From Ranitomeya imitator (Eukaryota), in contig NC_091288.1 of assembly GCF_032444005.1 (NCBI RefSeq), positions 215,388,001-215,452,000 of the forward strand: a DNA stretch of 64,000 nucleotides, in the 5' to 3' direction. The position numbers and the translations under genes are program-made. Below are positions 12,775 to 63,705 of the stretch, one piece after another. Below the pieces are notes generated by a model that did not search any database, was not told the DNA's origin, and saw only the letters and a list, made by a program, of their open reading frames with translations. Position 1 is the first letter of the stretch; every line of letters starts with the position of its first letter.

Positions 12775-18121
<5,347 letters not shown>

Positions 18122-33397: not shown

Positions 33398-33454
33398 TTG
33401 TCCTCTCTGGTTACTTGTGATGTTCCTTTGTTTGTGTTAATAAAGCTTTATAGG

Positions 33455-36790: not shown

Positions 36791-37507
36791 ATATACTGCT
36801 GAACAAATGCTGCCGTATATTAATGAAATAATACTGCATGCTGAGCCCAAATACTGCCATATAGTGCCTTATAGTACTGACATGTAGTGCCGAAATAATA
36901 GCAACAGCACAGAATCTAACTAGCATTGTCCACTGCTGAAATAATACTGCAATATAGTGCTGAAACATTAGTACCTATAGTGCCTAATAGTACTGACATG
37001 CTGCTGAAATAACAGTGTAAAGCTCAATTACCATCATTTAGTACATAATGCCGCCACATGGTGCTGAGATAATAGTAGAAAGCCTTACTACTGTCATCAA
37101 AAGCTGGGCGGCAGCGGTCATGAGAACGATGTGCAGCATGTGACCAATGCCAAGAATTGCTATTAAAGGGGGTGCGCGTAAAATAAAAATAAACAGCGGC
37201 ATAGTCGCTTTCCAGCGCCCTCCGCGGATTTGGCGGAGGATTGCGCCGGCTCTGGAAGCAATGCGTGCAGCATTGCTGTCTGTGATTGGCTGCAGCGGTC
37301 AGGTGACTAGAGGAGCTTGTGATCGGCTGCAGGCTGTCCTCTGACTTCCCACAGGAGCAGGCATCGCTTCTGGAGACGCTCGTTAGCGTCCGCTCTCCCT
37401 CCGTCTCAGTCTCGTTTATTGTTCTTATGTTTTTATATTTTGCACTTTTTTACCTTTTTTTGTCTTCCTTATAATATCTACGTGACTGGTACAATCCCGC
37501 CGCTTTC

Positions 37508-37708
37508 TGCTGAGTCACGCCACAATCACTCACTTCCTGTTTTTCGGGAACCATTGGATCTGCTGAGTCACTTTTAGAAAAAAAAAAAAAAGAAAATCCC
37601 TGAGTGCAGCAGAGGAATACGGAAGTGACTACGGAGGCAGCGGCTGGGATTGTATATATACAGGTCACCCTGCAGCCGGTCACCAGCTCTGCGCTGCACA
37701 CAGTAAGT
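37508..37708 (+). promoter_or_regulatory. Proximal promoter and short non-coding exon of HMOX2 copy 1: two TGCTGAGTCAC (37508-37518, 37561-37571), ETS sites (37531, 37620), ATTGG (37553), TATATATA (37653-37660), donor GTAAGT (37703)
   Basis: Motifs read directly; the donor pairs with the acceptor at 37823 to give a 121-nt intron; the region is conserved in the duplicate at ~51800-51975. Confidence 0.62.
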
Positions 37709-44600: not shown

Positions 44601-47600
44601 GGCGGCTGAGGTGGAAGTGTCAATGGGGATATTGAAGTCACCCATGATGATCGTGGGGATGTCGGCTGAGAGAAAATGAAGTAGCTAGATGGTGAAGTGG
44701 TCAATAAAAGGTGGAGATGGCTAGTTCTGGGGGGGCGGTACATGACAGCCAGCTGGAGATTGGAGGGGGAGTAGATGCAGATGGAGTGCACCTTGAATGA
44801 GGGAAGAGTAGCAGAGGGTGGTAGTGGAATTGGGGTAAAGGAGCAGGTATCGTACAGGAGCAAGCCAACCCCTCCACCATGTTTGTTGCTGGGGCGAGGG
44901 GTGTGAGAGAGGTGGAATCCACCATAGGAAAGAGCGGCTGGAGAGGCTGAGTCAGAGGCGGTGAGCCAGGTTTCAGTGATGCCGAGGAAGGAGAGTTTGT
45001 TATTGATAAAGAGGTCTTGGATAAATGACAGTTTATTGCAGACAAGAGCGTGCGTTCCATAGTGCTCCAGGTAGGGAAATTGGGGGAGTGGGGGCTGGAT
45101 GAATGGGTATGAGGTTACTGTGGTTGCGAGGACGTGTAGAGGATCGTGGCAGGGGATTAGAAATGAGTGTGGGGATGTGATGAGGAGGGCCAGGATTTGG
45201 GGATATGTCGCCAGCAATGAGGAGCAGCAGACAGAGCGTTAGAAGGTGTGAGCAGGATAGGTCATGATGTGGCCGTGTGTGTCTGGAGAGAAAGGATTGT
45301 GTGTGGAGGAATAGTTCTGTGGAGGAGGTGAGGTGACTGGGGAGGATGGAGGAAGAAATGACTAGTTCCTTACTGGGTGGAGGGATTACAGGAGATAGGA
45401 AGAAATAAAGTAGTATGGGGGTGAATGTTACAGGAAACCGAAACATTATTGAAGTTTTCTATTCCTTTACCTTCCAGTTAATTCCAGTCCAATTCATGGT
45501 AATTAAAAATCTATAATTTAAAAGATGGAATTTCAAAGATGGTCAGACACGTCTGGTCAGACTCATGGCTTTGAATTTATGTGCACCTAAGGGCTCACAG
45601 CTGAGAGGGGGGATGTGGGCCTGTGTGTGTCCAGAGCACATGTTCACAGTTAAGAAGGTAATAAAGAGGGGGTGGGGTAGATGGCCACTCAGGTATGCCA
45701 GGAAGACACAAGAGGAGTGAAATACATATGGATAGAAAATAATGGGTAAGCAAAGCATGCCAGGTGGCAATTACATGCACTTCACATAGACAGACATAGC
45801 AGGAAAAGCTGAGTAGATGAGCAGCATACCAGGTGGCAATTATATGCACTTCATATAGAAAGACATAGCAGGAAAAGCTGAGTAGATGAGCAGCATACCA
45901 GGTGGCAATTATATGCACTTCATATAGAAAGACATAGCAGGAAAAGCTGAGTAGATGAGCAGCATACCTGTGGGTAGACAAAACAACTCGATTAGATGAT
46001 GCAGTTGGTGATGAGGATGATGAAAGTACAGCTGTGATGAATGGGTAAATGCTTCATGGAATTCTAGTCTAATTCATGGTAATTAAAAATCTAATTTAAA
46101 AGATGGAATTTCAAAGATGGTCAGACACGTCTGGTCAGACTCATGGCTTTGAATTTAAGATGGAGGCAGATGGAGGCACTATGGATGCCTTCTGACCTAT
46201 GATCTAGCGGTGTTCGTTTTTTTTAGGTGTATTAGTAACACATGGATCGACAGCCTATAAAATGTTCACACCCCCTTGTCTGCATCCTGTATACAGCTCG
46301 CCACGGGTGCTCTGTACTACACGTATTCTGCGCTGGAAGAGGAGCTTGACCGAAACAAGGAGAACCCGGCCATCGCACCCCTGTATTTCCCTCAGGAGCT
46401 GCACAGGGCGGAGGCGCTACAGAAAGATGTCACCTACTTCTATGGTGAAGATTGGAAGGACACGATCCAGTGCTCTGAGGCCACACAGGCTTACGTAGAC
46501 CGGATCCGCCACTTAGGCCGTCACAAGCCAGAACTGCTGGTGGCTCACGCCTACACCAGGTACATGGGGGATCTGTCAGGAGGTCAAGTCCTGAAGAAGG
46601 TGGCACAGAGAGCCCTGCACCTGCCCAACACCGGGGAAGGGATCCAGTTCTACATGTTTGATAATGTCACGAATGCCCAGCAGTTCAAGCAACTCTACAG
46701 GGCCCGACTCAACACACTGGAACTGAATGCCAAGGCGAAGGAGGACATGGTGGAAGAAGCAAACAAAGCCTTCCAGTTTAATATGCAGGTATGTGTCTAA
46801 CAGTGCCTGGAATTATGAGAACTATAATGCCGCCCTTATGTACAAGAATGTAACTACTATAATACTGCTCTTATGTACAAGAATATAACTACTATAATAC
46901 TGCCCCCTATGTACAAAAATATAACTACTATATTACTGCCCCTATGTACAAGAATAACACTACTATAATACTGCTCCTATGTTCAAGAATATAACTACTA
47001 TATTACTGCTCCTATGTACAAGAATATATCTACTATAATACTGCCCCCTATGTACAAGAATATAACTACTATAATACTGCGTCATGTACAAGAATATAAC
47101 TACTATAATACTGGCCCTATGTACAAGAATATAACTACTATAATACTGCTCCTATGTGCAAGAATATAACTACTATAATATGCTCCTATGTACAAGAATA
47201 TAACTCCTATAATACTGTCCCCTATGTACAAGAATATAACTACTATCATACTGCTCCTGTGTACAAGAATATAACTACTATAATACTGCTGCTATGTACA
47301 AGAATATAACTACTATAATACTGCTCCTATGTACAAGAATATAACTACTATAATACTGCTCCTATGTACAAGAATATAACTACTATAATACTGCTCCTAT
47401 GTACAAGAATATAACTACTATAATACTGCTCCTATGTACAAGAATATAACTACTATAATACTGCCCCTATGTACAAGAATATAACTACTATAATACTGCC
47501 CCTATGTACAAGAATATAACTACTATAATACTGCTCCTATGTACAAGAATATAACTACTATAATACTGCTCCTATGTACAAGAATATAACTACTATAATA

Positions 47601-48551
47601 CTGCTCCTATGTACAAGAATATAACTAATATAATACTGCTCCTATGTACAAGAATATAACTACTATAATACTGCCCCTATGTACAAGAATATAACTACTA
47701 TAATACTGCTCCTATGTACAAGAATATAACTAATATAATACTGCTCCTATGTACAAGAATATAACTACTATAATACTGTCCCCAATGTACAATAATATAA
47801 CTACTATAATACTGCTCCTATGTACAAGAATATAACTACTATAATACTGCTGCTATGTACAAGAATATAACTCCTATAATACTGTCCCCAATGTACAATA
47901 ATATAACTACTATAATACTGCTCCTATGTACAAGAATATAACTACTATAATACTGCCCCTATGTGCAAGAATATAACTACTATAATACTGCTCCTATGTA
48001 CAAGAATATAACTACTATAATACTGCCCCTATGTACAAGAATATAACTCCTATAATACTGTCCCCAATGTACAATAATATAACTACTATAATACTGCCCC
48101 TATGTACAAGAATATTACTGCTATAATACTGACCTTATGTACAGGAATATAACTATAATACTGCCCCCTATATTGAAGTGATTGTGGTAATTTTGTACTT
48201 TTTCATTTTCTGAAGGTATTTGAGGAGTTGGATAAGATAGGAACCACCATCCCTGATGAAGCACAAGATGGCGGACTTCCAGTGCATGATGGGAAGGGAG
48301 ATATTCGCAAATGCCCGTATTATGCTGCAAAAGGTGCGTGTAGGTGTCACACATTACATATGTACACATACGTAAATACGCACAGTATAGTGATGTGCAG
48401 GGGTCTCATCTCCTCCTCTCTCGCAGATGCTGCCTCCTCAGGATGTCCACTCCACGCTGCTCTGGCTCTAACAGGTCGCCCGGAAGTTAAAGCAGCACTA
48501 GCCGCTTTCGCCGCCGCCATCGCTGCCACCATCGCTTGGTATCTTATGTGA
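37865..48551 (+). CDS. HMOX2: Heme oxygenase 2, copy 1, 307 aa; coding exons 37865-37935, 39772-39889, 46297-46788, 48216-48333, 48427-48551 (exon acceptor at 37823, 41-nt UTR)
   Basis: In-frame GT-AG exons of 71/118/492/118/125 nt: MSSAQEES...[29 protein letters not shown]...[21 protein letters not shown]...RKCPYY...GCPLH...AWYLM. Two C-terminal Cys-Pro heme regulatory motifs and a membrane anchor identify HO-2 rather than HO-1. The third mammalian CP (VQCP) is IQCS here. Adjacency to NMRAL1 matches mammalian gene order. Confidence 0.96.
38442..38613. other. Assembly gap (172 N) in AT-rich low-complexity sequence
   Basis: N run flanked by TA-rich tracts. Confidence 0.99.
38888..39091. mobile_element. 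204-bp non-autonomous Tc1/mariner element
   Basis: TA|cagtgaaggaaataagtattcga ... tcgaatacttatttccaccactg|TA: terminal inverted repeats with TA target duplication. Confidence 0.85.
40675..41555. repeat. Pyrimidine-rich minisatellite (gctccctgttccgtc, 15 bp) grading into shorter variants
   Basis: Read directly; source of the SLFRR/PVPSL/GTEQG periodic ORFs. Confidence 0.93.
42048..46170 (-). mobile_element. Near full-length, frameshifted L2-clade LINE in HMOX2 intron
   Basis: (TAA)n tail at ~42048; RT fragments ([34 protein letters not shown]) in 42767..43876; APE endonuclease (GITETWL, MGDFN) in 44346..45217; N-terminal [13 protein letters not shown]. 5' boundary is approximate. Confidence 0.9.
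46822..48172. repeat. 35-bp minisatellite (ctatgtacaagaatataactactataatactgctc)n filling an HMOX2 intron; reverse complement of 13352-16256
   Basis: Same unit as the NMRAL1-B array on the opposite strand. Confidence 0.96.
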
Positions 48552-48715: not shown

Positions 48716-51113
48716 GAACTGCCGGGAAGGGGGTTTCTCGGCCTAGGGAGTATTAACCCCTTAATGTTCAGATTCAGGGGTTATATGCACTATAACTGTG
48801 TTCTAATAGGTCGGTGAGCACAGCCATAAGCACACAATAGGTCTTACCCTAGAAGTCGCCATTGGCTGCTCATCTACCACTTACTGTATATTACGAGATG
48901 TGTTGAGAGGATTTAGCCATATGTATATGCAAGACTCCCAAAGATGATTTCATGATTTATTACGGATGAAGTATTAATGGTTTGGTGCTGCCACGTGAGG
49001 AAACCATCTTGTTTTTGGAGCTGTAGTTCCTCGTAGATTTTTAGATATACTGTGACGCCAATATGGCCGGCCATCGACACAGCCCGGAATTTCGTGCCTC
49101 TTTGAGAATCCATTCACTTCTAACAGTTTACTCATCAGATTTTACATATCGATCATTGAAGATCATCCATCCAATATGGCCGCCGTGACACCTTTCCTGA
49201 GGGCTACAATGGGATTTTGCCTAGTGATGCATCTCCTGTTTGCCTTTTTTACAGTCTGACCACCACTGTTGCTGCCATATTGTTTTTGAACCAGATTTTC
49301 CAGAAATGGATTTCTAAGAAATTGCTAAGAATTTGGATTTTTAGGGGGATAACGCTGTGTAAATATCACCAGTAACAGAGACTAGGTGTAGGCGGCCATA
49401 TTGGTGACCTTAGATTACAACTAGAGAGGCGCAAATAACATTGTGCCTCATACCTCATTACTCCATCAACGGTTTGGCTAGAAAATGGCCGCCTTTTGCT
49501 GTCCTTAATTCTTACAAGGTAACGGTTGTGTGAGTGTGCGGAGCTCGGATGTCTGAGCCGTTCCTCGCTTGGAGATAACAAAAGGAGCTTTTTGTGTAAC
49601 TCAATAAATTATATTAAAATATCGAATGTGTAAGTTGTTCCTACTTCGGATGCTTTTATCGTGGACAAGCGGCGCCCGTATCAATCAATATTTTCCTCAA
49701 TGACTCCTCGAGACACTTTCTCTTCCATTGACCTCAGTCGTATGAGAGTGTCTGGTTGCTATTCACTCTGTTTGTCCACAACAACCGGTCTGTCAGACAT
49801 GATTAAGTTGTTTAACTCTGTCATCCCTTGTCATCCGGCATTATTATTAATCAGACGTTTTCCCAAAATTTGACTCCCCTGCCTCAGGAAGAGGGCATCA
49901 CCTCCAACAGCCCCCTCTATTTACTGTATTCACGTCATCAGTCATGTTTTATGTTCTCTGTCAGACTATATCACCACCCACAGGCAGACAGAGGCTTCGA
50001 CAAAACATGGGGCACTGCACTCCGACCATGTTTGTCAGAACTGTTTTATAATCCATGGCAACCAATCAGCTTCTTATTCCACCACAGAGCAACCAATCAG
50101 AGCTCAGCTTTCGTTTTACCTCAGCAGTGTAAGATTTGACTGAGGTGGTCATCTACTCTGTCAGTCAGTGTTTCTCTGTGGCAGGCGGTAGGAATGTGTA
50201 TGTCTCCATCATGGCGAGTTGTGATAGTCAAGACCGATGTACCCGACACATTGTAATTGGCCACCGGATACGGAGGTAGACGGCCATGTAGAGTCGTCAC
50301 AATAGATCATGGCGGATGAATAATGATAATCTTTATTTTTATATAGCGCTAACATATTCCGCAGTGCTTTACAGTTTGAACACATGATCATAGATGAAGT
50401 GCGATTCTATGGAACTGGGTGTGTTGCCTCACAGAAAACTCGCATGAAAAAAAATCTCCCCTTTATGACCCCAAAATCTGTGTTTTGATGCTCGGATCAT
50501 GGGTTTTATATTCTGTGGTGAGAATGTGAACACATCCATGTAGGGGAACTTCTTCCTAAAATTTCTTGCACAGGGTCCTGTTTGTAGCCCACCCTGGCTT
50601 TACTTCCAATTGGAGACCACTTTAGTAAATCATTCTCCCCACAGCCAGGTCTCCGTATAATGATCTTTGGTTGCCAATAGAAATGGCTTTCTGTCCTACT
50701 TCTCCGGAAAGGATCAGAGCCTCTGTAGTAGATGACAGTGTAAGTGAAAGGAAGATTATATTGTCATATGTGCATGAGCTGCCAGAGGGGGGAGGAGACT
50801 TATCTTCTCAAAAGCACAGAATGGCTTCATGTGGAAGCAAAAAATGCTTAAAAATGTATCTTGATACTAGAAAAAAAGATGACTCAAGGACTTAAATTTA
50901 CCGAGGGCTAAAACAAAGTTTTGTGGCTCATGTCGTGATATTTTTTACTTTGGCCATAACAAACCACAATGAGTGAAGTTTTTTGGCTCTATTTAAGTAA
51001 TGGGAACTAAATATAAACCCACGGAATAAAATCCACCTTGATCACGGCTTGTGAGGAGCAGTGTAGTGGAAACTAATCCATAGGCTGGCTGGAACGTTGG
51101 ACATCTTGTTAAG

Positions 51114-51297
51114 CAAGGATGTCAAACTGCATTCCTCGAGGGCCGCAAACAGGTCGTGTTTTCAGGATTTCCTTGTATTGCACAGGTGATAATTTAATCA
51201 CCTGCACAGAATGATTCCAGCACCTTGTGTATTGCAAAGGAAATCTTGAAAACACGCATGGTCTGAGGCCCTCGAGGAATGCAGTTTGACACCCCTG
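51114..51297. mobile_element. 184-bp hAT-type MITE
   Basis: TIRs caaggatgtcaaactgcattcctcgagggc / gccctcgaggaatgcagtttgacacccctg; perfect 8-bp TSD TTGTTAAG (51106-51113, 51298-51305). Confidence 0.9.
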
Positions 51298-51384
51298 TTG
51301 TTAAGTGTGGTACACTTGACATGCCGACAGATCAAGGAATGTAATTCACAGCAATGGAGGGGTGCTATGGGCTTTCCTATATTG

Positions 51385-51600
51385 TAACCATAAGAGGGTA
51401 TCCTCTACGTCTAGAGGAAGAAAGAAAAACTTTCTGCACCAACATATATGAGGATTCTTTACTGTAAGAGCAGTGAGAGCATGGAACTCTATGCCGGGGG
51501 AAAGTTGTAGTGAATTAACTACAAGGGTTTATAAGGAGCATGGATGCCTTTCTGAAAGTCATAATATCACAAGTTATGGCTACTAGACTGCTAGAAATGC
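51385..51600 (+). mobile_element. Degenerate CR1 3' fragment
   Basis: ggtatcctctacgtctagaggaa...ttctttactgtaagagcagtgagagcatggaactct aligns by eye with the RGHxLRLEE...FFTVRAVRxWN end of the CR1 at 2299-3233. Confidence 0.7.
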
Positions 51601-51800
51601 AGCAGGTTATTATTCTGAGTGTCAGATTTGGAGTCTGGAAGGAATTTTTTCATTTTAGGATGAGGAAAATTGACTTTTGCATTGATGAGTTGGGGGGGGG
51701 GGGGGGGGATATGCTGAACGAGATGTCCTCAAGTATTGTTTTTGCCATGCGAGGTATGTTGCGAAGTTACACCATCGTTCCTCATGGTTTCGCTGCCTCC

Positions 51801-51975
51801 TCACGTTTCTGCACTTTTAGGGAACCATTGGATCTGTTTAGTCACATTTTTATTAAAATAATAAATAAACCCTGACTACAGCAGAGACTTACGGAAGTAA
51901 TCATGGGAGGTAGCTGCTGGGATTGCATATATGGAGGTCACCCTGCAGCTGGTCATGTGCGTTGCTCTGAACAGA
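51801..51975 (+). promoter_or_regulatory. Degenerate duplicate of the HMOX2 proximal promoter (upstream of copy 2)
   Basis: gggaaccattggatctg, cagcagag, tacggaagt, ctgggattg, ggtcaccctgcagc are collinear with 37545-37682; ARE reads TGTTTAGTCAC, TATA reads CATATATG, donor absent. Confidence 0.8.
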
Positions 51976-52699
51976 GGGTTGAGACGAAGGGTAGGCTTAT
52001 GCAAACAACACTGGCGGGCATGGTACCGCATAGGGTTAAATCCAGGTGCCGGGGTCAGCACCTTCCTCTTTCTCCCCAGCGGACCCTCTGGAACCATTTC
52101 TCCCACTCTCCCTCCCTTACATATTCACTGATGTTTTGTGCTGTTAGGATAAAGAAAAATGTTTTAATATTTGAAATTTAAAACTGACGATAATAATACT
52201 GTTCTTATTAAGTCACAGCGGAAGTGGAGGGAGGGGCGAAGGTTCATAGCCGCTCATTGGCTGCCCGCCTGCTGGTCGCAGACTGGGCCCACGGCTGTGA
52301 GCCTGTTGCGAAATGTAATTGCCCCTCTGTGACCGACTCGTTTCAACCCATCTAGGCCTGTTTGTGTTGTCTTTTCGGGATCAGAGGGAGGGGGGAAGGC
52401 ACTGTTTACGGCACACAGGTCTCCGCAGTCTTAATTTTCAGGGCACCATGTCGGGATGTGCTGCAGAAGATTGGAGAAGAAGGAAGTCTGCAGAGAAGAG
52501 CTGTGGATGTTAAAAGTCACCATGGCATCTGGACAAGATGGAGACGAAAAGAAATAAATGACTCAATTAGAGAAGATGGCATCTATAAGGTTCCTGTATG
52601 TAAATGTTTACTTGTTGATACTGGCTATGTCTCATGAGTACTGTGTTCTTGTATGGTCCACAGTCTGATAATGATATAACAGCTCCCAGCATCTTCTTA

Positions 52700-53037
52700 G
52701 GGTATGTGCACACGTCAGGATTTCTTGCAGAAATTTTCCTGACAAAAACCGGACATTTCTGCCAGAAATCCGCATGCGTTTTTACCGCGATTTTACCACG
52801 ATTTTAACGCGTTTTTGGTGCGTTTTTTTGTGCGTTTTTCCCCAAATGCATAGAATTGCGGGAAAACGCAGAAAATCTGCAAAAATAATGAACATGCTCA
52901 TTTTTTTTCCGCGATGCGTTTTTTTTCGCGGAACAAAACGCATCCATGTGCACATAACATGCAGAATGCATTCTAAATGATAGAATGCATAATGTATGCA
53001 AAAAAACGCGAAAAAACCTGAACGTGTGCACATAGCC
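52700..53037. mobile_element. PIF/Harbinger-type MITE, 338 bp
   Basis: TTA|gggtatgtgcacacgt ... acgtgtgcacatagcc|TTA. Confidence 0.85.
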
Positions 53038-53147
53038 TTACTATTGTTAAGGACATACTGTGAGTTGTAGATTCATGAAATACAAATGTAAATGGGCCTG
53101 ACTTGATATTACAATTGATAGCTGTACTAAGCTTTATGATGTATTAA

Positions 53148-53984
53148 AGGGAACCTGTCACCCCGGTTTTTAAGCACGAGATAAAAATACTGTTAAATAG
53201 GGCCTGAGCTGTGCGTTAGTTACTGTAGTGTATTTTGTGTACCCTGATTCCACCCCTAAGCTGCCGAAATAACTTACCAAAGTCGCCATTTTCGCCTGTC
53301 AATCAGGCTGGTCAGGTCAGATGGGCGTGGCGACATCGCTGTATCTTCCCCCAGATCTTGCATATATTTCCGTTGGTGGCGTAGTGGTTTGCGCATACCC
53401 ATCTTCTGAATCCACTGGGCAGGAGAAGAAAAAACGCGCGATGGGCGCTATTTCCCTGGTGATCTGTGGGGGCGGCCATCTTCCTGAGGCCGCGCGTGCA
53501 CATATGGAGTCGTCTGCTGCCCGGGGCTTCAGGAAAATGGCCGCGGGATGCCGCGCGTGCGCAGATGGAGATCGCGGCAGCCATTTTCCTGAAGCAGAGT
53601 TCGCATCTCAACTTCAGGAAAATGGCCGCCGCGGACTCCATATGCGCACGCGCGGCCTCAGGATCACCCCCACAGATCACCAGGGAAATAGCGCCGATCG
53701 CGCGTTTTTTCTTCTGCCCAGTGGATTCAGAAGATGGGCATGCGCAAACCACTACGCCACCAACGGAAATATATGCAAGATCTGGGGGAAGATACAGCGA
53801 TGTCGCCACGCCCATCTGACCTGACCAGCCTGATTGACAGGCGAAAACGGCGACTTTGGTAAGTTATTTCAGCAGCTTAGGGGTGGAATCAGGGTACACA
53901 AAATACACTATAGTAACGCACAGCTCAGGCCCTATTTAACAGTATTTTTATCTCGTACTGAAAAACCAGGGTGACAGGTTCCCT
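53148..53984. mobile_element. Kolobok/T2-type palindromic MITE, 837 bp
   Basis: TTAA|agggaacctgtcacc ... ggtgacaggttccct|TTAA; almost fully self-complementary (near-identical ORFs on both strands, 53321..53824 and 53312..53815). Confidence 0.9.
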
Positions 53985-54420
53985 TTAATGTACTGATGGT
54001 GATTCTGGTGTTGTGTTCGTGTACTAATTACATTTAAATAGCTTCCCATTTGCTGTGTGTCCATGTTCGGGACTAGGTCATGCTCATCCCTTATTCACAT
54101 AGGGTGAATAGGACTAAATTCATGCCAATTTATATGGAAACTGGGGATGGATCACCTTTATCTTCTGGACCTGTTAATCATGAGACAATTGCAATAGAAA
54201 TCTGTATGGAACCTGATCATTGTGAAACTGTTCGTTTTCATCTTATTTCTTCTCCAAAGTTTCTATTCTATGAATTCCCTGGTTTTCAATTCATAACTCT
54301 TTTATCAATTGGGCATCAAGGGCCATTGCCTTTCCATTCTGAGTACTGTAAAGACAATTGCGACACTAATCAATCTGTTCTCAAACAAATCCAAGTCTCG
54401 GAGATTTCTCGTCAGAGTTA

Positions 54421-55400
54421 CAGTTATGGTTGAAATTGTTGGCAGCCTTCACTTTGTTCCAGAAAATGAAGTATTTTTTCCAGAAAATTATTGTAGTTAC
54501 GGTACATATACTTTGTTATATACGTTTATTTTCTTTGTGTATATAGGAACAACACACAAAAAAAACATAGCCAATAGGAAAAATGGATAATATTACATCA
54601 ATATACAAAACCCCCAAAATGGGCCAGACAAAATTGTTGGCACCTTTCCAAAATTATGAGTAAACAACTTTGTTTTCAAGCATGTGATGCTCGTTCAAAC
54701 TCGCTTGTGGCAAGTAACAGGTGTGGGCAATCTGAAAATCACACTTGAAAACCGATTAAAAGCCGAGAAGTTGACTCAATTTCTACACTGTTTGTATGTG
54801 TGTTCCACCCTAGGCATGGAGAACAGAAAGAGAACTGCTTGAGGACCTGAGAACCAAAGTTATTGAAAATAACAATCTGAAGGCTACAAGTCCATCCCCA
54901 TATATCTTTATGTTTCTTTGTCCACGGTGTGCAATCTAAACAACCTAATCAAGAAGTTTACAATACATGGCACAGTAGCTAATCTCTCTTTAGGTGGATG
55001 GCAGAGAAAAATTGATGACCAGATGCAACGCAGGATAGTCTGCATGGTGGATAGAAAGCCCCAATAAAGTTCCAAATAAATTCAATCTGTCCTGCAGGCC
55101 CACAGTACATAAGTGTTGGAGCAAACTATACGTTAGCATCTCATCTCATTCAAATGTCATGTCAGGAAACCCAGGAGGACCCCCTGCTCACATAGAGACA
55201 TAAAAAAACTAGACTGTAGTTTGCCAAAATATTCATGCGTAAGCCAAAATCTTTCTGGGAAAGTATCTTGTGGACAGATGAGACCAAGATAGAGCTTTTT
55301 GGTAACGCACAGCATTCTATTGTTTACCGAAAACAGAATGAGGTCTACAAAGAAAATAACACAGTAGAAACAATAAAGTGGAGTTCCATACACAATAATA
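54421..55400 (+). mobile_element. Decayed Tc1 transposon (left end and transposase N-terminal part)
   Basis: TA|cagttatggttgaaattgttggca with inner repeat caaaattgttggcacc (~54629); ILWTDETKIELFG at ~55264-55302. Confidence 0.8.
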
Positions 55401-55542
55401 AAGTTTAAAAGAAAAAAATACTTTATTGCACATGATACTACAAAAATGTCACAAAATGAAGCACAAACATAGAACATAAAAACCATGGTGAGAAACAAAT
55501 GGGTCCAAGGCATAAAAAATAATAAGCATCACCATGGTGTAA

Positions 55543-55844
55543 GGCTACGTTCACATTTGCGTTGTGCGGGGCTGCGTCGGCGACGCAACGCACAACGCAA
55601 ACAAGAACGCATGCAAAACACATAGTTTTGCGACGCATGCGTCCTTTTTTTGCCGGATTTTGGACACAAAAAAAATGCATCTTGCTGCATCCTCTGCGCC
55701 CTAACGCTTGCGGCACAAAAGACGCATGCATCGCAAAACGCATGCAAACGCATGTCCATGCGCCCCCATGTTAAATATAGGGGCGCATGCGTCGCCGCGG
55801 CTGCGCCCGACGCAGCCCGGCAGAACGCTAATGTGAACGTAGCC
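55543..55844. mobile_element. PIF/Harbinger-type MITE, 302 bp
   Basis: TAA|ggctacgttcacatt ... aatgtgaacgtagcc|TTA; internal palindromic arms. Confidence 0.85.
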
Positions 55845-56551
55845 TTAGTGCGGGGCACTATGAACTTCAACAACATATGGTGTAAACCATGTATGTCAAT
55901 AAAGCATTAGGTATTAATGTAAACCTTAGCGCTAGCAATTATATAACAAAGATACCCCTCTAATAGTCAATTTCCCTGAGGCTGTCACAGTGACAATACG
56001 CCCCCAGAGGGGAAAAAGAAGAAAGTGCCCTTAGTAGCCATAAAGCTTACCCATGATGGACGTAACAAGATGCTGAGGAACCAGATCCAATCCCGCTGCC
56101 CCTACTCGCGTTTTGCCGTGTCTTCTCCTCCTTTTCACGATAGATCCCTTGTTCATTCCTGCTTTAGTAGCGATACTCTGTCTGGACTTGTTTTTATAAT
56201 GTATTAATTTATGTTAATATAATTTATACTATGGTTGAATATACTCTCTGAAATTTTATACTACATTTTATTAACATGCATTAACAAAACGCGCGTAGAG
56301 GCGGCAGGCTGGTATCCTCTTACTGTATAACCTAGTGAGTATTAGCCTAATACATGCACCTTATGACACTTTTTGTTACTCTGCCGGGACACATGCATTC
56401 TGTTGGGCTCTGACTTCCACTCCCTCACATGAGGATGTCACCCTGTGTTTAGGTCGTATGAGTGAGTGTCAGATCTAACCATGACTCTGTGCAGACTCTA
56501 GCTCTCTATTGTTTCCCTGTACATACACATTGATTAACTGCCTTATGATAG

Positions 56552-57725
56552 TGCAGCGCCCCAGGGTCCTGGTCCTCGCAGTGATATTGCTTTCCTCTTG
56601 GGGAGAGTGATACTACGTTTGGAGGCAAAGAAAGATAACTGCATCCAGGTATCACAAACATGCAACACATTTCACACTCCAGACCACCAGGGGGAACTTC
56701 TCCTATTTATTAGGTCACTCCCCATATATATAACTTGTAGTTTGTAGGGAAAGTTAGTCAGTTCCAGACAGGAGTTAGTTCCTGACAGAGCTCCAGACAG
56801 GCATTCTGGAGGGAGTTCCAGACCAGAGTCTGAGGAGGACAGAAGGTTAAAAGGAGCTGTGCATGCCCTCAGAGCTGCAGCTCCCAGAAAGAGACATTGA
56901 AAGGCAGAACTGTATTGCAGCGAGCGTGAAGGAAGTCGAAGCAAAGGAGAGGATACCAGAAGGGGACCAGCCCCGCTCAAGCTGTCTCCTTCTGAGGAGC
57001 AAAATCCTGGTAGCCGGAACACCGAGGGAGTAAGGACCTCTACGCCTTATTTCAGAGACCAGCAGGACAGCTAATTGCATGTTACCTGTCCGCACCTACA
57101 CTCAGGAGGCACAGTGACACCTACAGAGCCGGGTTATCTAAGAGACCCAATAAACAGGCTCAAGTCACCAGTCATACGGGTTTTGTCCTATCCTATATGG
57201 GGGACAGAGAGAGCGAAACATCGCATCTGTGAGACCCTTATGTGAAGCCATAGGCAGTAAGGGACTACACCACCGCAGCGCAAAGGAAGGCTACTGATTT
57301 CCACCTGGATAAGGGGACTCTGGATTTGCCTCCAAACCGGCCGGACTCTGCCTGCCCTGTGATCTGGTGCCCTGGACTGGATGCTGAAGTCTTCAGTAAA
57401 GGTAAAGAGACTGCAACCTTGTGTCCTCGTTCTTCACTGCGCCTCTCGCCATCCTACCATCTACACACTGGGAAGTCCTGGGGACATACTTCACCTGTGG
57501 GAAGGTATACCATCTAGCTGCCATGACATCACCCCAGCGGACCCCTAAAGCAGCGTCGGTCACCCTGACCGAATACCACAGGTGGCGTCACGAACATTCC
57601 TCTTAAAGACCTTTCCCTTTAACACCGACGTTCCAGGGCCACGGACCGGGTCAGCCACCGTGACATCCCCCTGTGAAGTACCAGACCTGGTACCGAGTAC
57701 CCCCTTGCCCTGACGGAGCGATCCA
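56552..57725. mobile_element. Probable solo LTR
   Basis: TG...CA ends with imperfect inverted termini (tgcagcgcccc / cggagcgatcca); no clean TSD found. Confidence 0.45.
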
Positions 57726-57929
57726 ATGTATTTTTATTTTGATCTTGATCAGCATCTATTTTACTATAGCACACAGGGCTTCATACTTTGTCTAAACTGA
57801 CCTGATTTATATATTCATATTCTGGCTATACTTTTCACAATGGATCCCTTATTCATTCCTGCATTAGTAGCGATACTCTGTCTGGACTTGTTTTTATAAT
57901 ATTTTAATGTATGTTAATAAAATGTATGT

Positions 57930-59395
57930 CTTTTGGCCTTAACAACGCCCCTGCAATTTTTCAGCATTTCATTAATGATGTGTTTTGAGATTTCTTGGAC
58001 CAATTTGTTGTTGCTTACCTCAATTACATTCTTATGTTTTCAGACACCTTGGAGGAATATGGCAGGCATGTCCAGTCCTTGGAACGTCTACAGGAAAATC
58101 ATCTCTATATTGAACTCGAAAAATGTGAATTTGAACAAGCCATGATTCAATTTCTTCGATATATCATCTGCCCAAAAGGTCGTCTGAGTATGGATCCTAG
58201 CAAAATCAGAGCCGTGGGTGACTGGTCTACTCCAAGAAATGTAAAAGACGTCCAACGCTTCTTAGGCTTTGCAAACTTCTACAGAATATTCATAAAACAT
58301 TTTCGAAGATCATCTTACCAGTCACTTCAGTCACAAAGAAAGCTTTTTCTGATCTCCAGAGGCACAAGTGGCTTTGACAAACTAAATCCTCGTTTTATTT
58401 CTTCTCCATTACTAGTCCATCCAAACCCTGAACTGCCGTTTGTTATCGTAGTAGACGCCTCAGACTCCGCGGTGGGAGCAGTTTTGTCTCAACGAGTTGG
58501 AGACAAGATGCAGCTTCATCCATGTGCATTCCTTTCTCATAACATGTCATCTGCAGAAAAGAACTATGACATTGGAAGATTGTACAAGACTATAAAGAAG
58601 CAGCAGATAAACATCGCAGAACCTTTCAGGCTGATTTTAACTTGCGTACCATCTTCTAAACTGGGTCAAAAATTCATAGGACCTTTTCACAGCCTGAAAA
58701 TTCATCATGCATCCTTGCTCAAACCATAGAGTGAGACTCATTTAACAGGAAGAACTCAGCCACCTTCTCCACCACAGCAAAAGGTCCAAGGTGAAGGAGA
58801 ACATCCTGTTGACAAAATTCTGGACTCTAGAAGATTTAGAGGCAGATTACAATAGTTGGTGCAATGGAGGGGTTACGGACCAGAACGTAGCTCTTGGGAG
58901 CCCCTAGGTTTGCGAGAGCATTTTATTAGAGGCATCCAGAGAAACCTTCCCCTGAGGTGTCCTGAGGCCATCCTGGAAGGAGGACACTACTGTCGAGACT
59001 CAGTGCATCAGGGAGCAGCTCTTCCTTCTGAGCTTCTCAGCTCTATGGACAGCTCCTTGCTTTTTTAGCCACCAGTACCTGTTGTTTCTGTTTGGCTCCA
59101 CCTTGTGTTTTTCTGATTGGCTCCACTCTGATTCCAAATCGAACACCCTATTTACGACTGATCTTGCACAACTTTGTGAAATTATTGAGTTTCCAGCCTT
59201 TAGTGGAGCGCTCTCACCTGTTGCTCCTCCATATCATACTGCTGCTCCTGTTTTCTGACCTCCGACTACGCTACCTACCTATGCTACGACTAGTGGTTGC
59301 CATACTAAGTCTCCAATCCAAACCCGGGTTTTTAAACAACCGTAAGTGTCAAAGGGCAACTTAGTCACACAGTAGATGGCAGTTACAGGGTGACA
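57930..59395 (+). mobile_element. Internally deleted Ty3/gypsy (chromovirus-type) remnant with PPT and 3' LTR (58991 to ~59387-59395)
   Basis: RT end (degenerate YLNY for YLDD, EKCEF, RFLGFANFY), RNase H (VDASDSAVGAVLSQ, EKNYD), integrase GPF tail (QKFIGPF), chromodomain (VDKILDSR...LVQWRGYGPE..SWEP), PPT GGAAGGAGGA 58975-58984, then TGT. Confidence 0.88.
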
Positions 59396-59542
59396 TAGGG
59401 GCCCGGCAGGGGTCCGGCTGCCTGCAACAGAAGGGCTGTCCTTCTGGATCATCTAGGCTTCACGTTCCCTTGCCTCATCGACTTCTATCTTTTTTGTTAT
59501 TAGGACTGGACCTTTTTTATCCTCTCACGGAACACAGACACC

Positions 59543-62500
59543 ATGTCCTCCGCACAGGAAGAAAGTGGGATTTATGGAGAGAAGGACCACCAGCACCCGA
59601 GGTGAGAGAGTGATCTGCGCACGTTATGTGGCGGTGACACATTCTGCAGCGATGTACAGGATTATGTCTTAGTAGCGAGCTGTATCCCCCATGTCATCTT
59701 AGATTGCCAGCTCTTCTATCCTGTATTGCAGTATGTGGGAGATATAGAAGGGAGAGCTGGTTCTATAATTCTATGCCACACTCAGGTTATACAGGCAGGG
59801 TTGAAGCTCGGATTATGTAACCGTCCACCTGTACGCGTCCCGGCACACCTTGGGTTATTAAAGTCACTACCTTAAAGATTCTGGCCTTCGCTTTTGTTTG
59901 TGCTGGTTTTATTCATGACACCTTATTTTTATAGTTTGTTTTTTTTCTTAATTTGACACTTATTAGGCAAAGTACTAAAGGTAACTCTTTGCGTACGTTT
60001 AAGTTGATGTATATTTCTTGTACATTTTGTCTGTGCTTTTAACATTATATGTCCCCCTACCCTCTCTATGGCATCATAGCAGACCTCTGGAGGAAATCCA
60101 CACTTACTCTACTGTTTTCGACTATAATGGGGGCATCCAGAAAAACCCTGTCCCGTGTGGTGACATTAATCCCTCGTGGTGCTTTTCTGGGTCTTGCCTT
60201 TGATCACCAGGACCAGTAGGAGCTGTGATATTGCCGTAGCTCATTGACCCATATGTAGAAGATGGAAACAGTTATAAACCTCTTCTGTCTTCTCCATGAA
60301 ACCTCTATTTTTTTCTTTTAGCCAAAACCCAACCTGATAGAGTGCAGGGGCTTTAAACTCGCTCTGCACTTTTGCAGCATGTGGTCCTAAACGTGATGAG
60401 TCTACACAGTGTGGAAGGACTTTATAGTTTTCGAAAGTTTTTCTCCAGTTACTTCCAGAGCATTTTTTGTTATAAACTCTGCATTTCTCACATAAACATA
60501 CTTCCTTTTAGCTCCATTTTCTACCAGTCTCATGACTTCTTTCTGAGCTCTCACAATGCACTACTCTCTTTTGAAAGAGAACATGGAAAAATTCTGAATT
60601 AAGCTCTAAACATGAGTGAGAAAGAAAACTTAATGAATTTGGCAAGTAAACTATTAACACTTAAGTCTCATTCGGACGTTCGTGTCAATCAGTCTGGGTA
60701 TGGAATGCTAAAGCACGGATTGGTCATGGCTCTCCCAACCCAAGTGTGACAGCTTCATTTACTATAATTTCACAAAAAAATTTCCTTTAGACCTAATTTA
60801 TTTTTACTTTCGCAAGGGAAAGAGGAGAAAATGGACCATGCAATTTGTTGTGAAATTTCTCCTGAGCATGCTGATACCCCATATGTGGGGGAAAACTATT
60901 GTCTGGGCGCATGGCAAGGCTTGGAAAGGAAGGAGCGCCATTTCACTTTTTGAATGTAACATTTGCTGGCATAATAAGCGGATGCAATGTCATGTTTGGA
61001 GAGCCCCTGATGTGCCTAAATAGTGGAAACTCCCAACAAGTGACGCCATTTTGGAAACTAGACCCTTTAGGGAACTTATCTAGATGTGTATTGAGCACCT
61101 TGAACTCCCAGGTTCTTCATAGAAGTTTATAGTGTAGATCCGCTTTGCATTGTCCTGATGGAAGCGCACAGGGAAATCTTTCCCTGGGCGATGCTCTTCT
61201 ATGTTGCTGTCACTACTGACAGCGGCATCAGAGGGGTTAAATGCCCACGATCGGTGCTGCCACCGATCGTGGGCATTGCTGCAATGTCAGCTCTCACATA
61301 GAGATACTGTAGTCAGTGAAGACAGATTGTTGCATTACTGATATAGGAGATGGCGATTGGTGCTAATAACATTCTATGATGGGAGGAGCTTTACTTCTAG
61401 CTCCTCCCCTCCTACATATATAGAGCTTTATGAGCACCAATTGTCATCTTCTATGTCAGTAATATAATAATCTGTCTTCACTAATTACAGATTTTACCTG
61501 TAAATTGAGAATTAATGATCAATCCTGGAGGAGAAAGAAGCAGATTTCTCTGATAAGATATTACAAAGTTTCTTATTTTCATGTGAACTATTCAATCATG
61601 AAATAAAAATTAAAACAACATCGAACCAGAAAGAAAACATAGCATAACTCACAATCCGATTCAGTGTTACTCAATTTCTTGCAGATTTTAACCGCTTCCC
61701 TTCTGTCATGATCCAGACTGGGTTTGGAGTCCTGCTTACCCCTTTCCCGGTCTGGTCATGTCAGGGGTTAACTTTGTTCTGCCTCATTCTGGGTTCGGGT
61801 TTGCTATTTATCTCCGCTGCATCCTGCAGGCGGTGTCGGTTATAGTTTCTGCCTACAGCATGAATAGCTGACCCTGCTTAAACCCTGATTTGCCCTGCTG
61901 CCTTTGCTGACTGTGCCCGTTTCTGTTTACTCCCCTCTTCCCGTCCCGACACAGTGTTTCCCTTTCATGTGTGGACTCCCAGGTACTTGATTCGGCTTGG
62001 ACCCTGACTTGCTTTTGTCTCTTGTCTTTGGTATTTCCACTCCTGACCGGTATTGACCTTTTTGGCTTGTCTCTGACTCTGTGTTTGTTTATTCCTTTGG
62101 TACTGCGCTACTGACTAATATCGACCCGGCTTGTTTGACTATCCTGCTGCCACCTGGTGGTAGTCTCGCTGCTGTGCTGCAGGTCTGCTCTGGCAGTGTG
62201 CAGTCCTCCCACCACTATATTGCCATCTAGTGGAGCTTGCATCTCCCTGCATAGCACCTTCTTTGCTGAGATTTCCTTTAATCCCTTCATGACCTATGAC
62301 ATATAAGTGCATCATAGATCGTGTATTCCCCTTTGATGCGGGCTCCGGCGCTGAGCCCGCATCTTTTTCTGAATATGACAGCTGATCTGATCAGGCTGTC
62401 ATGTGTCTCTAACAGCTGCGGGTGGAATCCTGATCCTCCTGTTAACATGTTAAATGCCGTTGTAAATCTTGGACAGCGGCATTTAACATAATAGCGATGA

Positions 62501-63705
62501 AAGCGCATCACAAACCTCGCCCAACGGCACCCCTGTCATATGATTGCGGGGTGCCGATGGGTTGGCATGACAACTGGGGTTATGCAGAAGACCCCCGTGT
62601 TTGTCACTGCAGATGTGCTAGGATTGTAGGCCGCTGATGATTTCGGCTGTGATAGAAATGATGATTTCTGCTCGTGCTACATTTCTGCTATGTGCAGCAC
62701 AAGCGAGTGGAAGATCACAGCTTCAGGTCTCCTCAAGAGACTATTGAAGCAAGTAAAAAGTAGAAAAAAAAGTTTTTAAAAATATTTAAAAAAAATAAAT
62801 AAATGTTCAAATCACCGCCCTTTTGCCCCATTCAAAAGAAAACAATAAAAAAAATACCCATATTTGGTATCGCCGCATTCAAAATCGCCCGATCTATCAA
62901 AATATAAAGTAAATTAATCTGATCGACAAATGGCGCAACGAGAAAAAAAATTAAAACCACAGAATGACAGATTGCAATAAAATGGAATAACAAGCGATCA
63001 AAACATCATGTCTACTCCATGATGGTATCAATAAAAACGACATCGTGGCGCGCAAAAAATAAGCCCTCAATCAGCCCCAGATCCCGAAAAATGGAGACGC
63101 TACGAGTCTCCGAAAATGGCACCATTTATTTATTTATTTTTTACAATTTTTCTTTTTTCAACACTTATCATGTCTGATATCTGTGAACTGGGATACTGGC
63201 CTGGACAATCATAATGGCAGCTCAGTTTTAGCATTTTGCGATCATGGTAAAAAAAAAAAAAACAATTGTGAAATGGCATTTTTTTTTTTTTTTTTGCAAT
63301 TTCACTGCACTTGGTATTTTTTCCCGATTTCCAGTACACTGTACGGTAAAACCAATGCTGTTGTTCAAAAGTTCAACTTGTTCCGCAAAAAACAAGCCCT
63401 CACACGGCCATATTGACGGAAAAATTAAAAAAAAGTTATGGGTCTGGAAAGAAGGGGAGCAGAAACCGAAAATACAAAAATGGAAAATCCCAAGGTCGTG
63501 AAAGGGTTAAATGAGAACCATCATCCTCTTAGTAATGTACGATGCCGGCCATCTTGTCTGACCGGGTCGTCCTCTTGTCTTCTCTAGGCCGACAGATCTG
63601 TCCGAGCTTCTCAAGGAAGGAACTAAGAAATCTCACGACGACGCACAAAATACCAAGTTCATGAAGGATTTTCTTAAGGGTCGGATCAAACGAGAATTAT
63701 TTAAG
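59543..63705 (+). CDS. HMOX2: Heme oxygenase 2-like, copy 2 (partial); coding exons 59543-59601 and 63588-63705, continues beyond the window
   Basis: [20 protein letters not shown]|[39 protein letters not shown]; intact splice sites (acceptors 59503 and 63587), in-frame 12-nt deletion vs copy 1. Later exons are not visible, so pseudogene status cannot be excluded. Confidence 0.82.
61704..62256. mobile_element. Solo LTR, 553 bp
   Basis: TG...CA with perfect 5-bp TSD CCTTC (61699-61703, 62257-62261); absent from the homologous site in copy 1 (~39668). Confidence 0.85.
62282..63506. mobile_element. piggyBac-type non-autonomous element, ~1225 bp
   Basis: TTAA|tcccttcatgacc ... ggtcgtgaaaggg|TTAA; homology with HMOX2 copy 1 resumes on both sides. 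Confidence 0.8.

What the first reader, a model, noticed from the sequence alone, without database searches (positions are those of the whole stretch)
51801..59503. Promoter replacement in HMOX2 copy 2: dead ARE/TATA promoter pushed 7.4 kb away, LTR promoter with splice donor in its place
The duplicated proximal promoter has a mutated ARE (51835-51845), a weakened TATA and no donor; the upstream ARE is not recognisable. In copy 1 it is ~120 nt from the coding exon; here ~7.4 kb of stacked elements intervene. The last of them is a sense gypsy 3' LTR with ATTGG (59116), TATTTA (59149) and a consensus donor CC|GTAAGT (59342), which would splice to the acceptor at 59503 (162-nt intron). The donor could alternatively be the displaced original one. 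Inference: LTR exaptation giving copy 2 a new expression pattern.
Basis: partly seen in the sequence, partly recalled or inferred. Interest (0 to 1): 0.7.

Follow-up and report, generated by a model that had tools for sequence, protein, structure and literature searches.

The report
Retrotransposon first exon for frog HMOX2
In a poison frog, the second copy of a duplicated heme-breakdown gene has its original promoter pushed 7.4 kb away by jumping-gene debris, and its RNA carries a first exon made from the end of an old retrotransposon, which likely now serves as its promoter.

Summary
Copy 2 of a tandem HMOX2 pair has its duplicated proximal promoter (ARE with two changes, weaker TATA) cut off from the first coding exon by about 7.4 kb of repeats ending in a sense Ty3/gypsy 3' LTR (58991-59338). 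Public-run contigs show the predicted 162-nt splice 59341-59504 in 2 of 4 runs laid (two studies); a third fits it indirectly, and the fourth (another species label) holds the LTR unspliced. Cover is high over the LTR exon and near zero just upstream in two runs and at the old promoter, so a start inside the LTR is likely, but contigs cannot fix a start. One correction: CCAAT and TATA are LTR-family features, but the donor lies 3 nt outside the LTR, in non-LTR sequence. A new expression pattern is untested. New context: copy 2 encodes a 253-aa HO-2 core without CP motifs or membrane anchor, truncated likewise in four dendrobatid gene models. Verdict: a new member of a known kind (LTR-derived first exon/promoter of a host gene, as in mouse Naip), unusually clean and on an unusual paralog.

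The parts
37508..37702 (+). Copy 1 proximal promoter and non-coding exon 1: two TGCTGAGTCAC AREs (37508, 37561), CCAAT, TATA 37653; donor GTAAGT at 37703 (reference for comparison)
   Evidence: sequence
51800..51976 (+). Displaced copy 2 proximal promoter and 5' remnant of old exon 1: ARE with two changes (51835-51845), CCAAT 51827 intact, TATA weakened (51926), no donor at the homologous place
   Evidence: 77% to copy 1; depth 0/1.4/0/3.6 in bin 51721-52127
51977..52031 (.). 55 nt of unknown origin, single match in the genome
   Evidence: 1 candidate, itself; not homologous to copy 1 intron (1413 of 2000 shuffles reach the score)
52032..52431 (+). 5'-truncated fragment of a high-copy repeat (82-88% to family); family copies carry a CCAAT/GC-rich stretch upstream that is missing here; the motifs near 52250 belong to it
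52431..54028 (+). Second repeat (80-91% to family) split into three collinear pieces by two nested MITE-like insertions (52699-53036, 53144-53988)
   Evidence: 'MITE' is my label from their palindromic form
54104..54420 (+). 5'-most surviving piece of the gypsy internal region, collinear with 57925 onward in 7 of 11 family loci; no 5' LTR found in the region
54421..57924 (.). Later insertions inside the gypsy element: probable Tc1/mariner remnant (about 54480-55400; recalled motif, no Pfam hit), palindromic MITE-like element (55540-55848), 97-nt direct repeats (56131, 57831), and a young 1.18-kb high-copy element (56550-57725, 88-92% to family, LTR-like by inference)
57925..58990 (+). Broken gypsy pol remnant (RT end, RNase H, chromodomain trace; stops and deletions) and purine-rich tract
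58991..59338 (+). Gypsy 3' LTR (TGT...ACA) with family-typical ATTGG (59116) and TATTTA (59149); no AATAAA/ATTAAA here or in any of 29 family copies; its 3' part forms the new first exon; out-of-frame upstream ATG at 59281
59176..59341 (+). New non-coding first exon (5' end approximate: contigs begin at 59072, 59176 and 59211 in three runs)
   Evidence: tables 5 and 8
59339..59365 (+). 27-nt non-LTR spacer holding the used donor ACC|GTAAGT (59342); single match in the genome at up to 2 mismatches
59366..59503 (+). Host intron 1 homologous to copy 1, with the decayed positional homologue of the copy 1 donor (GTAGAT, 59372) and acceptor AG at 59502-59503
59504..59601 (+). Copy 2 exon 2, ATG at 59543
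63588..63705 (+). Copy 2 exon 3 with the proximal heme His; exons 4-6 lie beyond the window (G000:C7:215458714 onward), stop TAA at G000:C7:215467841
50211..50276 (+). Candidate alternative upstream exon: encodes the N-terminus used by the R. variabilis copy 2 model (P0149), which skips exon 2
   Evidence: outside the stretch on which runs were laid

Best explanation
HMOX2 copy 2 RNA carries a first exon made of the 3' part of an old sense gypsy LTR, spliced from a donor just outside the LTR to exon 2, and transcription likely starts at the LTR's own CCAAT/TATA promoter rather than at the ancestral promoter 7.4 kb upstream. Inferred history: after a tandem duplication, insertion at the 3' end of the short non-coding exon 1 separated promoter from gene; further elements piled in and deletions removed the gypsy 5' LTR. 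The LTR has no canonical poly(A) signal, so RNA started in it would run out of its end and meet a consensus donor 3 nt later. The old promoter, left without a good donor, decayed at its ARE and TATA. The predicted result is ARE-independent expression of a 253-aa HO-2 core lacking CP motifs and membrane anchor, probably damped by an out-of-frame upstream ATG.
For: Shown: joint 59341-59504 (GT..AG, 162 nt) in X8 (depth 32.4, 99 letters on the short side) and X5 (17.8, 32 letters), two studies, 2 of 4 runs laid; the 395-nt X8 contig has 270 letters on 59072-59341 and 125 beyond. In X1 a contig covers 59176-59329 at depth 27 with no mismatch, its upstream neighbour (58946-59198) has depth 2.2, and the exon 2 contig carries 11 unplaced letters before 59504, the number expected for 59331-59341 (inferred; letters not shown). 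59176 is 27 nt after the TATA. Bins 57826-58639 have depth 0-1 in X1 and X8; the old-promoter bin 0 and 1.4. ATTGG in 18 of 29 and TA(T/C)TTAA in 24 of 29 family copies at the same columns. No poly(A) hexamer in the LTR, 0 of 29 copies. LTR end at 59338 matches the family TAACA end; 0 of 11 copies with a parsed end have a GTAAGT/GTGAGT in the next 30 nt. The LTR is present in a second species label (X11, 30 mismatches over 729 nt). Copy 2 keeps an open heme oxygenase core (Pfam 273 bits; aligned to human HO-2) and forms a clade of four dendrobatid models (98/99).
Against: All four runs are contigs, unstranded, and only guessed or not recorded as RNA; the tool states that they cannot show a start. 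The X8 contig begins at 59072, 77 nt upstream of the TATA. X5 has mismatch-free contigs inside the pol remnant (58047-58218, 58649-58818) at depth about 12 against 18-21 at the LTR exon, which fits read-through or DNA. X11 shows no joint. X1 has no listed joint, and its exon 2 contig is deeper (74) than its LTR contig (27). 37 joints and 4987 pieces were not shown, so a rare joint from the old promoter is not excluded. The R. variabilis model (P0149) uses a different upstream exon and skips exon 2. The LTR core promoter is no better preserved than the rest of the LTR (7 of 41 changed against 5 of 54 to 11 of 45). The old promoter keeps its CCAAT and GGAAGT sites. No tissue labels were available.
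Confidence: 0.7

Rival explanations
1. Exonisation without promoter capture: RNA starts further upstream (the young 56550-57725 element with a TATATATAA at 56725, the old promoter, or read-through from copy 1) and runs through the pol remnant and LTR to the 59342 donor, so the LTR supplies exon sequence only.
For: X5 cover inside pol at about two thirds of the LTR-exon depth; X8 contig starts upstream of the TATA; mismatch-free low cover (depth 2-4) at 55960-56484 and 57669-57877 in X1 or X8; the LTR has no poly(A) hexamer.
Against: Depth 0-1 over 57826-58639 in X1 and X8 while the LTR-exon contigs are at 27-32; X5 cover is patchy; a tenfold step near 59176 in X1.
Confidence: 0.15
2. The LTR exon is one of several 5' ends. 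A second promoter, such as the exon at 50211-50276 used in the R. variabilis model or residual activity of the old promoter, makes much of the RNA in some tissues or species, and the LTR is a minor alternative promoter of the common kind.
For: P0149 N-terminus is encoded at 50211-50276 with a donor after it; exon 2 deeper than the LTR exon in X1; no joint in X11; PMC3649676 (section 4) says TE promoters usually give minor variants.
Against: The X1 exon 2 contig extends 11 letters upstream of the acceptor unbroken, which suggests one dominant upstream partner (inference from contig structure); the R. imitator model P0164 begins in exon 2; P0149's exon may be a prediction without RNA support.
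Confidence: 0.1
3. Neutral decay: copy 2 is a slowly dying duplicate kept open by gene conversion from copy 1, and LTR-driven RNA is noise without function.
For: Premature stop and a broken last exon; exon 4 differs at only 10 of 492 nt against 15 of 117 in exon 3, which suggests conversion; out-of-frame upstream ATG overlapping about 31 codons of the main frame; anchorless HO-2 loses use of endogenous CPR (PMC3335857, section 16). This rival is compatible with the best explanation on where RNA starts and differs on function.
Against: Exons 2-3, which differ clearly from copy 1, stay in frame in four species models, and all four end within a few residues of each other (253-257 aa); the stop is 13 nt before the last junction, so it is predicted to escape NMD.
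Confidence: 0.3

Closest known systems
Mouse Naip genes driven by an ORR1E LTR; primate INSL4 driven by an LTR (PMC3649676, section 4 read)
   Same: An LTR supplies the first exon and probably the main start of a host protein-coding gene in a duplicated family.
   Different: Here a Ty3/gypsy LTR in an amphibian, not a mammalian ERV/MaLR LTR; the ancestral promoter is still readable upstream; the donor is outside the LTR; exclusive use and start site are not yet shown.
Medaka dmrt1bY, a duplicate rewired by the Izanagi DNA transposon (PMC7786948 and PMC3649676, passages read)
   Same: A transposon insertion in the promoter of one gene duplicate changes its regulation.
   Different: There a DNA transposon adds a regulatory element, with a shown functional outcome; here the core promoter and first exon appear replaced and no outcome is shown.
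Rodent gene with an LTR/LINE composite giving an alternative promoter and first exon expressed in testis (PMC7786948, passage read)
   Same: Composite TE at intron 1 yields a new first exon spliced into the host gene.
   Different: There the classical transcript persists; here the old exon 1 has lost its donor.
Vertebrate HMOX2 and engineered C-terminally deleted HO-2 (PMC3335857, abstract and section 16 read; PDB 2q32, residues 1-264)
   Same: Copy 2 keeps the catalytic core over nearly the span of the crystallised soluble construct.
   Different: Copy 2 is a natural gene that ends before both CP motifs and the anchor, and has Gln for the Glu four residues after the proximal His.

Membership tests
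LTR-derived promoter / first exon of a host gene | A true LTR lies in sense just upstream of the gene | tested here: met
   Follows RT/RNase H remnant; family alignment with shared ends
LTR-derived promoter / first exon of a host gene | LTR sequence is spliced to host exons in RNA | tested here: met
   Joint 59341-59504 in 2 of 4 runs, two studies; run type is guessed or unrecorded, but a GT..AG joint indicates RNA
LTR-derived promoter / first exon of a host gene | Transcription starts inside the LTR | tested here: inconclusive
   Contig 5' ends 59072, 59176, 59211 and depth step in X1; contigs cannot show starts; X5 has upstream cover
LTR-derived promoter / first exon of a host gene | Core promoter motifs come from the LTR family | tested here: met
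   ATTGG 18 of 29, TA(T/C)TTAA 24 of 29 copies
LTR-derived promoter / first exon of a host gene | Splice donor supplied by the LTR (common, not required) | tested here: not met
   Donor 3 nt beyond the LTR end; 0 of 11 parsed family ends carry it
Exaptation in the strict sense (PMC3649676) | Most or all transcripts start in the element | tested here: inconclusive
   Little cover at the old promoter, but tables are cut, contigs only, and the 50.2-kb exon was not covered
Exaptation in the strict sense (PMC3649676) | New tissue pattern, selection on the element, or effect of its loss | not testable with these tools
   No tissue labels or orthologous DNA; no extra preservation of the core promoter within the LTR
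Ty3/gypsy (chromodomain-type) retrotransposon | RT, RNase H, then integrase with chromodomain, purine tract, LTR TG...CA | tested here: inconclusive
   RT/RNase H met; chromo hit below cut-off (E 0.0067); integrase core largely deleted; 5' LTR absent
HMOX2 (HO-2) | Heme oxygenase core closest to HO-2 | tested here: met
   351 bits to human HO-2 against 271 to HO-1; best named hits are frog HMOX2
HMOX2 (HO-2) | C-terminal CP heme-regulatory motifs and membrane anchor | tested here: not met
   Copy 2 stops at residue 253; exon 6 has deletions

The most novel reading that the evidence does not exclude
Poison frogs have reorganised their heme oxygenases: HMOX1 is gone, HMOX2 copy 1 took on ARE-driven stress induction, and copy 2 was handed by a gypsy LTR an ARE-independent promoter to make a soluble, unanchored HO-2 (heme buffer, cytosolic or nuclear form) kept across dendrobatids. 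The locus would be a preserved record of promoter replacement fixing the fate of a duplicate.
Probability: 0.2. Interest if true: 0.75.

Novelty: new member of a known kind. Interest (0 to 1): 0.52.

Why it matters
LTR promoter capture is well described in mammals; the examples in the two reviews I read passages of are mammalian or medaka. Here old and new promoter sit side by side with an intact sister copy as a control, so the question of whether a transposon can replace, not just add to, a promoter and so retain a duplicate is directly testable in a frog. The captured gene encodes a natural anchorless HO-2 shared by four poison-frog gene models, and no HMOX1 was found in this assembly, which bears on heme, biliverdin and oxidative-stress handling in these frogs.

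Tried and rejected
Donor as an LTR feature: rejected. Donor spacer as the end of another repeat: no other match at up to 2 mismatches, and 51966-52035 matches only itself; both searches are limited, so the origin stays open. 51970-52035 as a remnant of copy 1 intron 1: not above chance (1413 of 2000 shuffles). Motifs at 52250 as a host promoter: they lie in a high-copy repeat fragment. A 5' LTR or clean target-site duplication for the gypsy element: none found; ACAGAG (51971) and ACACAG (59367) could be a 6-nt duplication for the whole block, untested. No listed run is on record as RNA; that is no evidence on expression. Parts without contig cover are not proof of silence. Pfam gave nothing for 4 of 7 queries (54077-54430, two putative Tc1 pieces, 58730-58852). 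The tree left the second Leptodactylus fuscus unit unplaced (long branch), so the duplication is not shown to be older than dendrobatids. HMOX1 was not found in four searches; these score only first-look candidates and do not prove loss. Literature searches with no relevant hit. Earlier-findings look-ups gave nothing that bears on this.
Full report
Setting. The window is G000:C7:215388001-215452000 of a 5.96-Gb genome. Copy 1 exon 4 is identical to P0026, which its sources name as a Ranitomeya imitator protein on a contig of the same length as C7. Only two heme oxygenase genes were found in the genome, both here in tandem. Both are HMOX2-type.

Observation. The copy 1 promoter and exon 1 (37541-37703) match 51815-51976 at 77%, and copy 1 intron 1/exon 2 match 59471-59639 at 75%. 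The copy 2 ARE has two changes, the TATA is weaker, the upstream ARE region has no homologue (1816 of 2000 shuffles reach the score), and no donor stands at the homologous place. CCAAT and GGAAGT survive, so the old promoter is damaged rather than shown dead.

The intervening block. It is a mosaic of truncated and nested repeats: a fragment of a high-copy family at 52032-52431, a second family split by two nested insertions at 52431-54028, and a gypsy element running from 54104 to 59338 whose internal pieces are collinear in 7 of 11 family loci and interrupted by about 3.5 kb of later insertions, among them a young 1.18-kb element at 56550-57725. RT/RNase H is confirmed by Pfam; the chromodomain hit is below cut-off. 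There is no 5' LTR in the region. The labels MITE and Tc1 are mine, from shape and a recalled motif.

The LTR. I aligned the 29 other loci returned, from a search with 42 matches (456 candidates, 40 scored). The window LTR begins TGT at 58991 and ends ACA at 59338, in register with the family's TAACA end, after which copies diverge. ATTGG is present at the same columns in 18 of 29 copies and TA(T/C)TTAA in 24 of 29, so the promoter motifs came with the element. Neither the window LTR nor any of 29 copies has AATAAA/ATTAAA. The window copy is 69-81% identical to the others (median 74%), similar to the 77% between the two promoter copies, so the insertion is old and may be not much younger than the duplication (inference; the copies are only the best-scoring candidates). 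The core promoter is not better preserved than the rest of the LTR.

The donor. GTAAGT at 59342 lies 3 nt outside the LTR, and 0 of 11 family copies with a parsed end have such a site in the next 30 nt. The best positional homologue of copy 1's donor is a decayed GTAGAT at 59372 (23 of 29 ungapped; 0 of 2000 shuffles). The used donor also resembles copy 1's (11 of 13), but weakly (80 of 2000 shuffles) and half of that is the splice consensus. Two readings remain: it is the original donor, with the insertion 3 nt before it and a 30-nt indel after it, or it is a local duplicate or new site in a 27-nt spacer that matches nowhere else in the genome. Either way it is not LTR-derived.

RNA. Of 14 runs listed I laid four, from four studies, on 50500-62700; all are contigs and none is on record as RNA. 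The predicted joint 59341-59504 (GT..AG, 162 nt) is listed for X8 (depth 32.4) and X5 (17.8), not for X1 or X11. In X1 a mismatch-free contig covers 59176-59329 at depth 27, its upstream neighbour has depth 2.2, and the exon 2 contig (depth 74) has 11 unplaced letters in front, as expected for 59331-59341 (inferred). X11, a second species label, holds 59003-59731 unspliced with 30 mismatches, so the LTR is shared but its use there is not shown. Bins over the pol remnant (57826-58639) are at depth 0-1 in X1 and X8; the old-promoter bin is at 0, 1.4, 0 and 3.6. Against a sharp LTR start: X8 reaches 77 nt upstream of the TATA, X5 has mismatch-free pol contigs at depth about 12, and one X5 contig has 21 unplaced letters before 59211. 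The tool showed only part of its tables (37 joints and 4987 pieces omitted) and states that contigs cannot show starts, strand or level.

The gene product. Copy 2 is open through exons 2-4, then has a 12-nt deletion and a TAA in exon 5, 13 nt before the last junction, and a deleted exon 6. The RefSeq model P0164 (253 aa) agrees, and models from R. variabilis (255), D. tinctorius (257) and P. terribilis (253) end at the same region. The four form a clade (98/99) in a tree of 20 rows, none dropped. The predicted protein is an HO-2 core without CP motifs or anchor, close to the span of the solved soluble construct 2q32. PMC3335857 (abstract and section 16 read) reports that anchor-deleted HO-2 loses use of endogenous CPR and can be found in the nucleus. 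Exon 4 differs from copy 1 at 10 of 492 nt against 15 of 117 in exon 3, which suggests gene conversion. The new leader has an out-of-frame ATG at 59281 in weak context whose 65-codon frame overlaps the main start; it would damp translation. The R. variabilis model begins with an exon found here at 50211-50276 and skips exon 2; whether RNA supports it I could not see.

Mechanism. Shown: displacement of the old promoter, LTR origin of CCAAT/TATA, non-LTR donor, LTR-to-exon 2 splicing, truncation of the reading frame. Inferred: start inside the LTR (about 0.7), loss of ARE control, order of events. Untested: tissue pattern, promoter activity, protein, selection.

Comparison. It works like mouse Naip and INSL4 (PMC3649676, section 4 and passages read) and, as a rewired duplicate, like medaka dmrt1bY (PMC7786948, passages read). 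It passes the tests for an LTR-derived first exon. Strict exaptation (most starts in the element, new pattern or selection) is unresolved. Searches for this locus in print found nothing relevant (listings only), but the library lacks most subscription papers, no supplements were read, and the RefSeq mRNA model behind P0164 may already include this 5' exon.

Verdict. Real, ordinary in kind, good as a case: interest 0.52, new member of a known kind. The boldest open reading, a reorganised heme oxygenase system in poison frogs with an LTR-driven soluble HO-2, gets probability 0.2 and interest 0.75.

Noticed in passing
L034 (G000:C7:215467751-215468070; copy 2 exons 5-6): Copy 2 stops before both CP motifs and the membrane anchor; the same truncation is in gene models of four dendrobatids, so a conserved anchorless HO-2 paralog is predicted.
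   Followed up: partly
G000 whole genome; window 37508-37571: No HMOX1 found in four searches, while HMOX2 copy 1 has two perfect TGCTGAGTCAC elements in its proximal promoter, a feature I recall as typical of HMOX1. Possible loss of HMOX1 with transfer of inducibility, or an assembly or search gap.
   Followed up: partly
window 46230-48167 against L033 (copy 2 exon 4 and intron 4): 94% identity over exon 4 and the following minisatellite intron, far above the 75-89% of the 5' parts: likely gene conversion. An older assembly's model (P0005) differs from this one late in exon 4.
   Followed up: partly
window 50211-50276: Stretch after copy 1's probable poly(A) signal (49604) encodes the N-terminus of the R. 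variabilis copy 2 model and is followed by a GT donor.
   Followed up: partly
window 59281: Out-of-frame upstream ATG in the LTR exon, 65 codons, overlapping the main start; only 6 of 29 family copies have an ATG there.
   Followed up: partly
P0133 (Leptodactylus fuscus model): A fused model holds two tandem HMOX2 units; the second shares several copy 2 residues (SHD.AQ, FMKDF, EEAK) but keeps an anchor. The duplication may be older than dendrobatids; the tree could not place it.
   Followed up: partly
window 59190-59210, run X5: A contig has 21 unplaced letters before 59211: allele difference, adaptor or another upstream joint; unexplained.
   Followed up: no
window 56131-56227 and 57831-57927: 97-nt direct repeats (91%) flank the young 1.18-kb element at a distance and abut the resumed gypsy pol; origin unknown.
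   Followed up: no
window 42050-46160: A LINE-like element on the minus strand fills copy 1 intron 3, with short direct repeats near its 5' end (read by eye, not tested).
   Followed up: no
window 1028-5477, 8398-11274, 13352-16257, 19638-33398, 33806-36867: Several long minisatellite arrays upstream of copy 1, one about 14 kb.
   Followed up: no
P0002-P0029: Many shark, ray and eel-like fish hmox1a models hold two or three tandem heme oxygenase domains in one chain.
   Followed up: no
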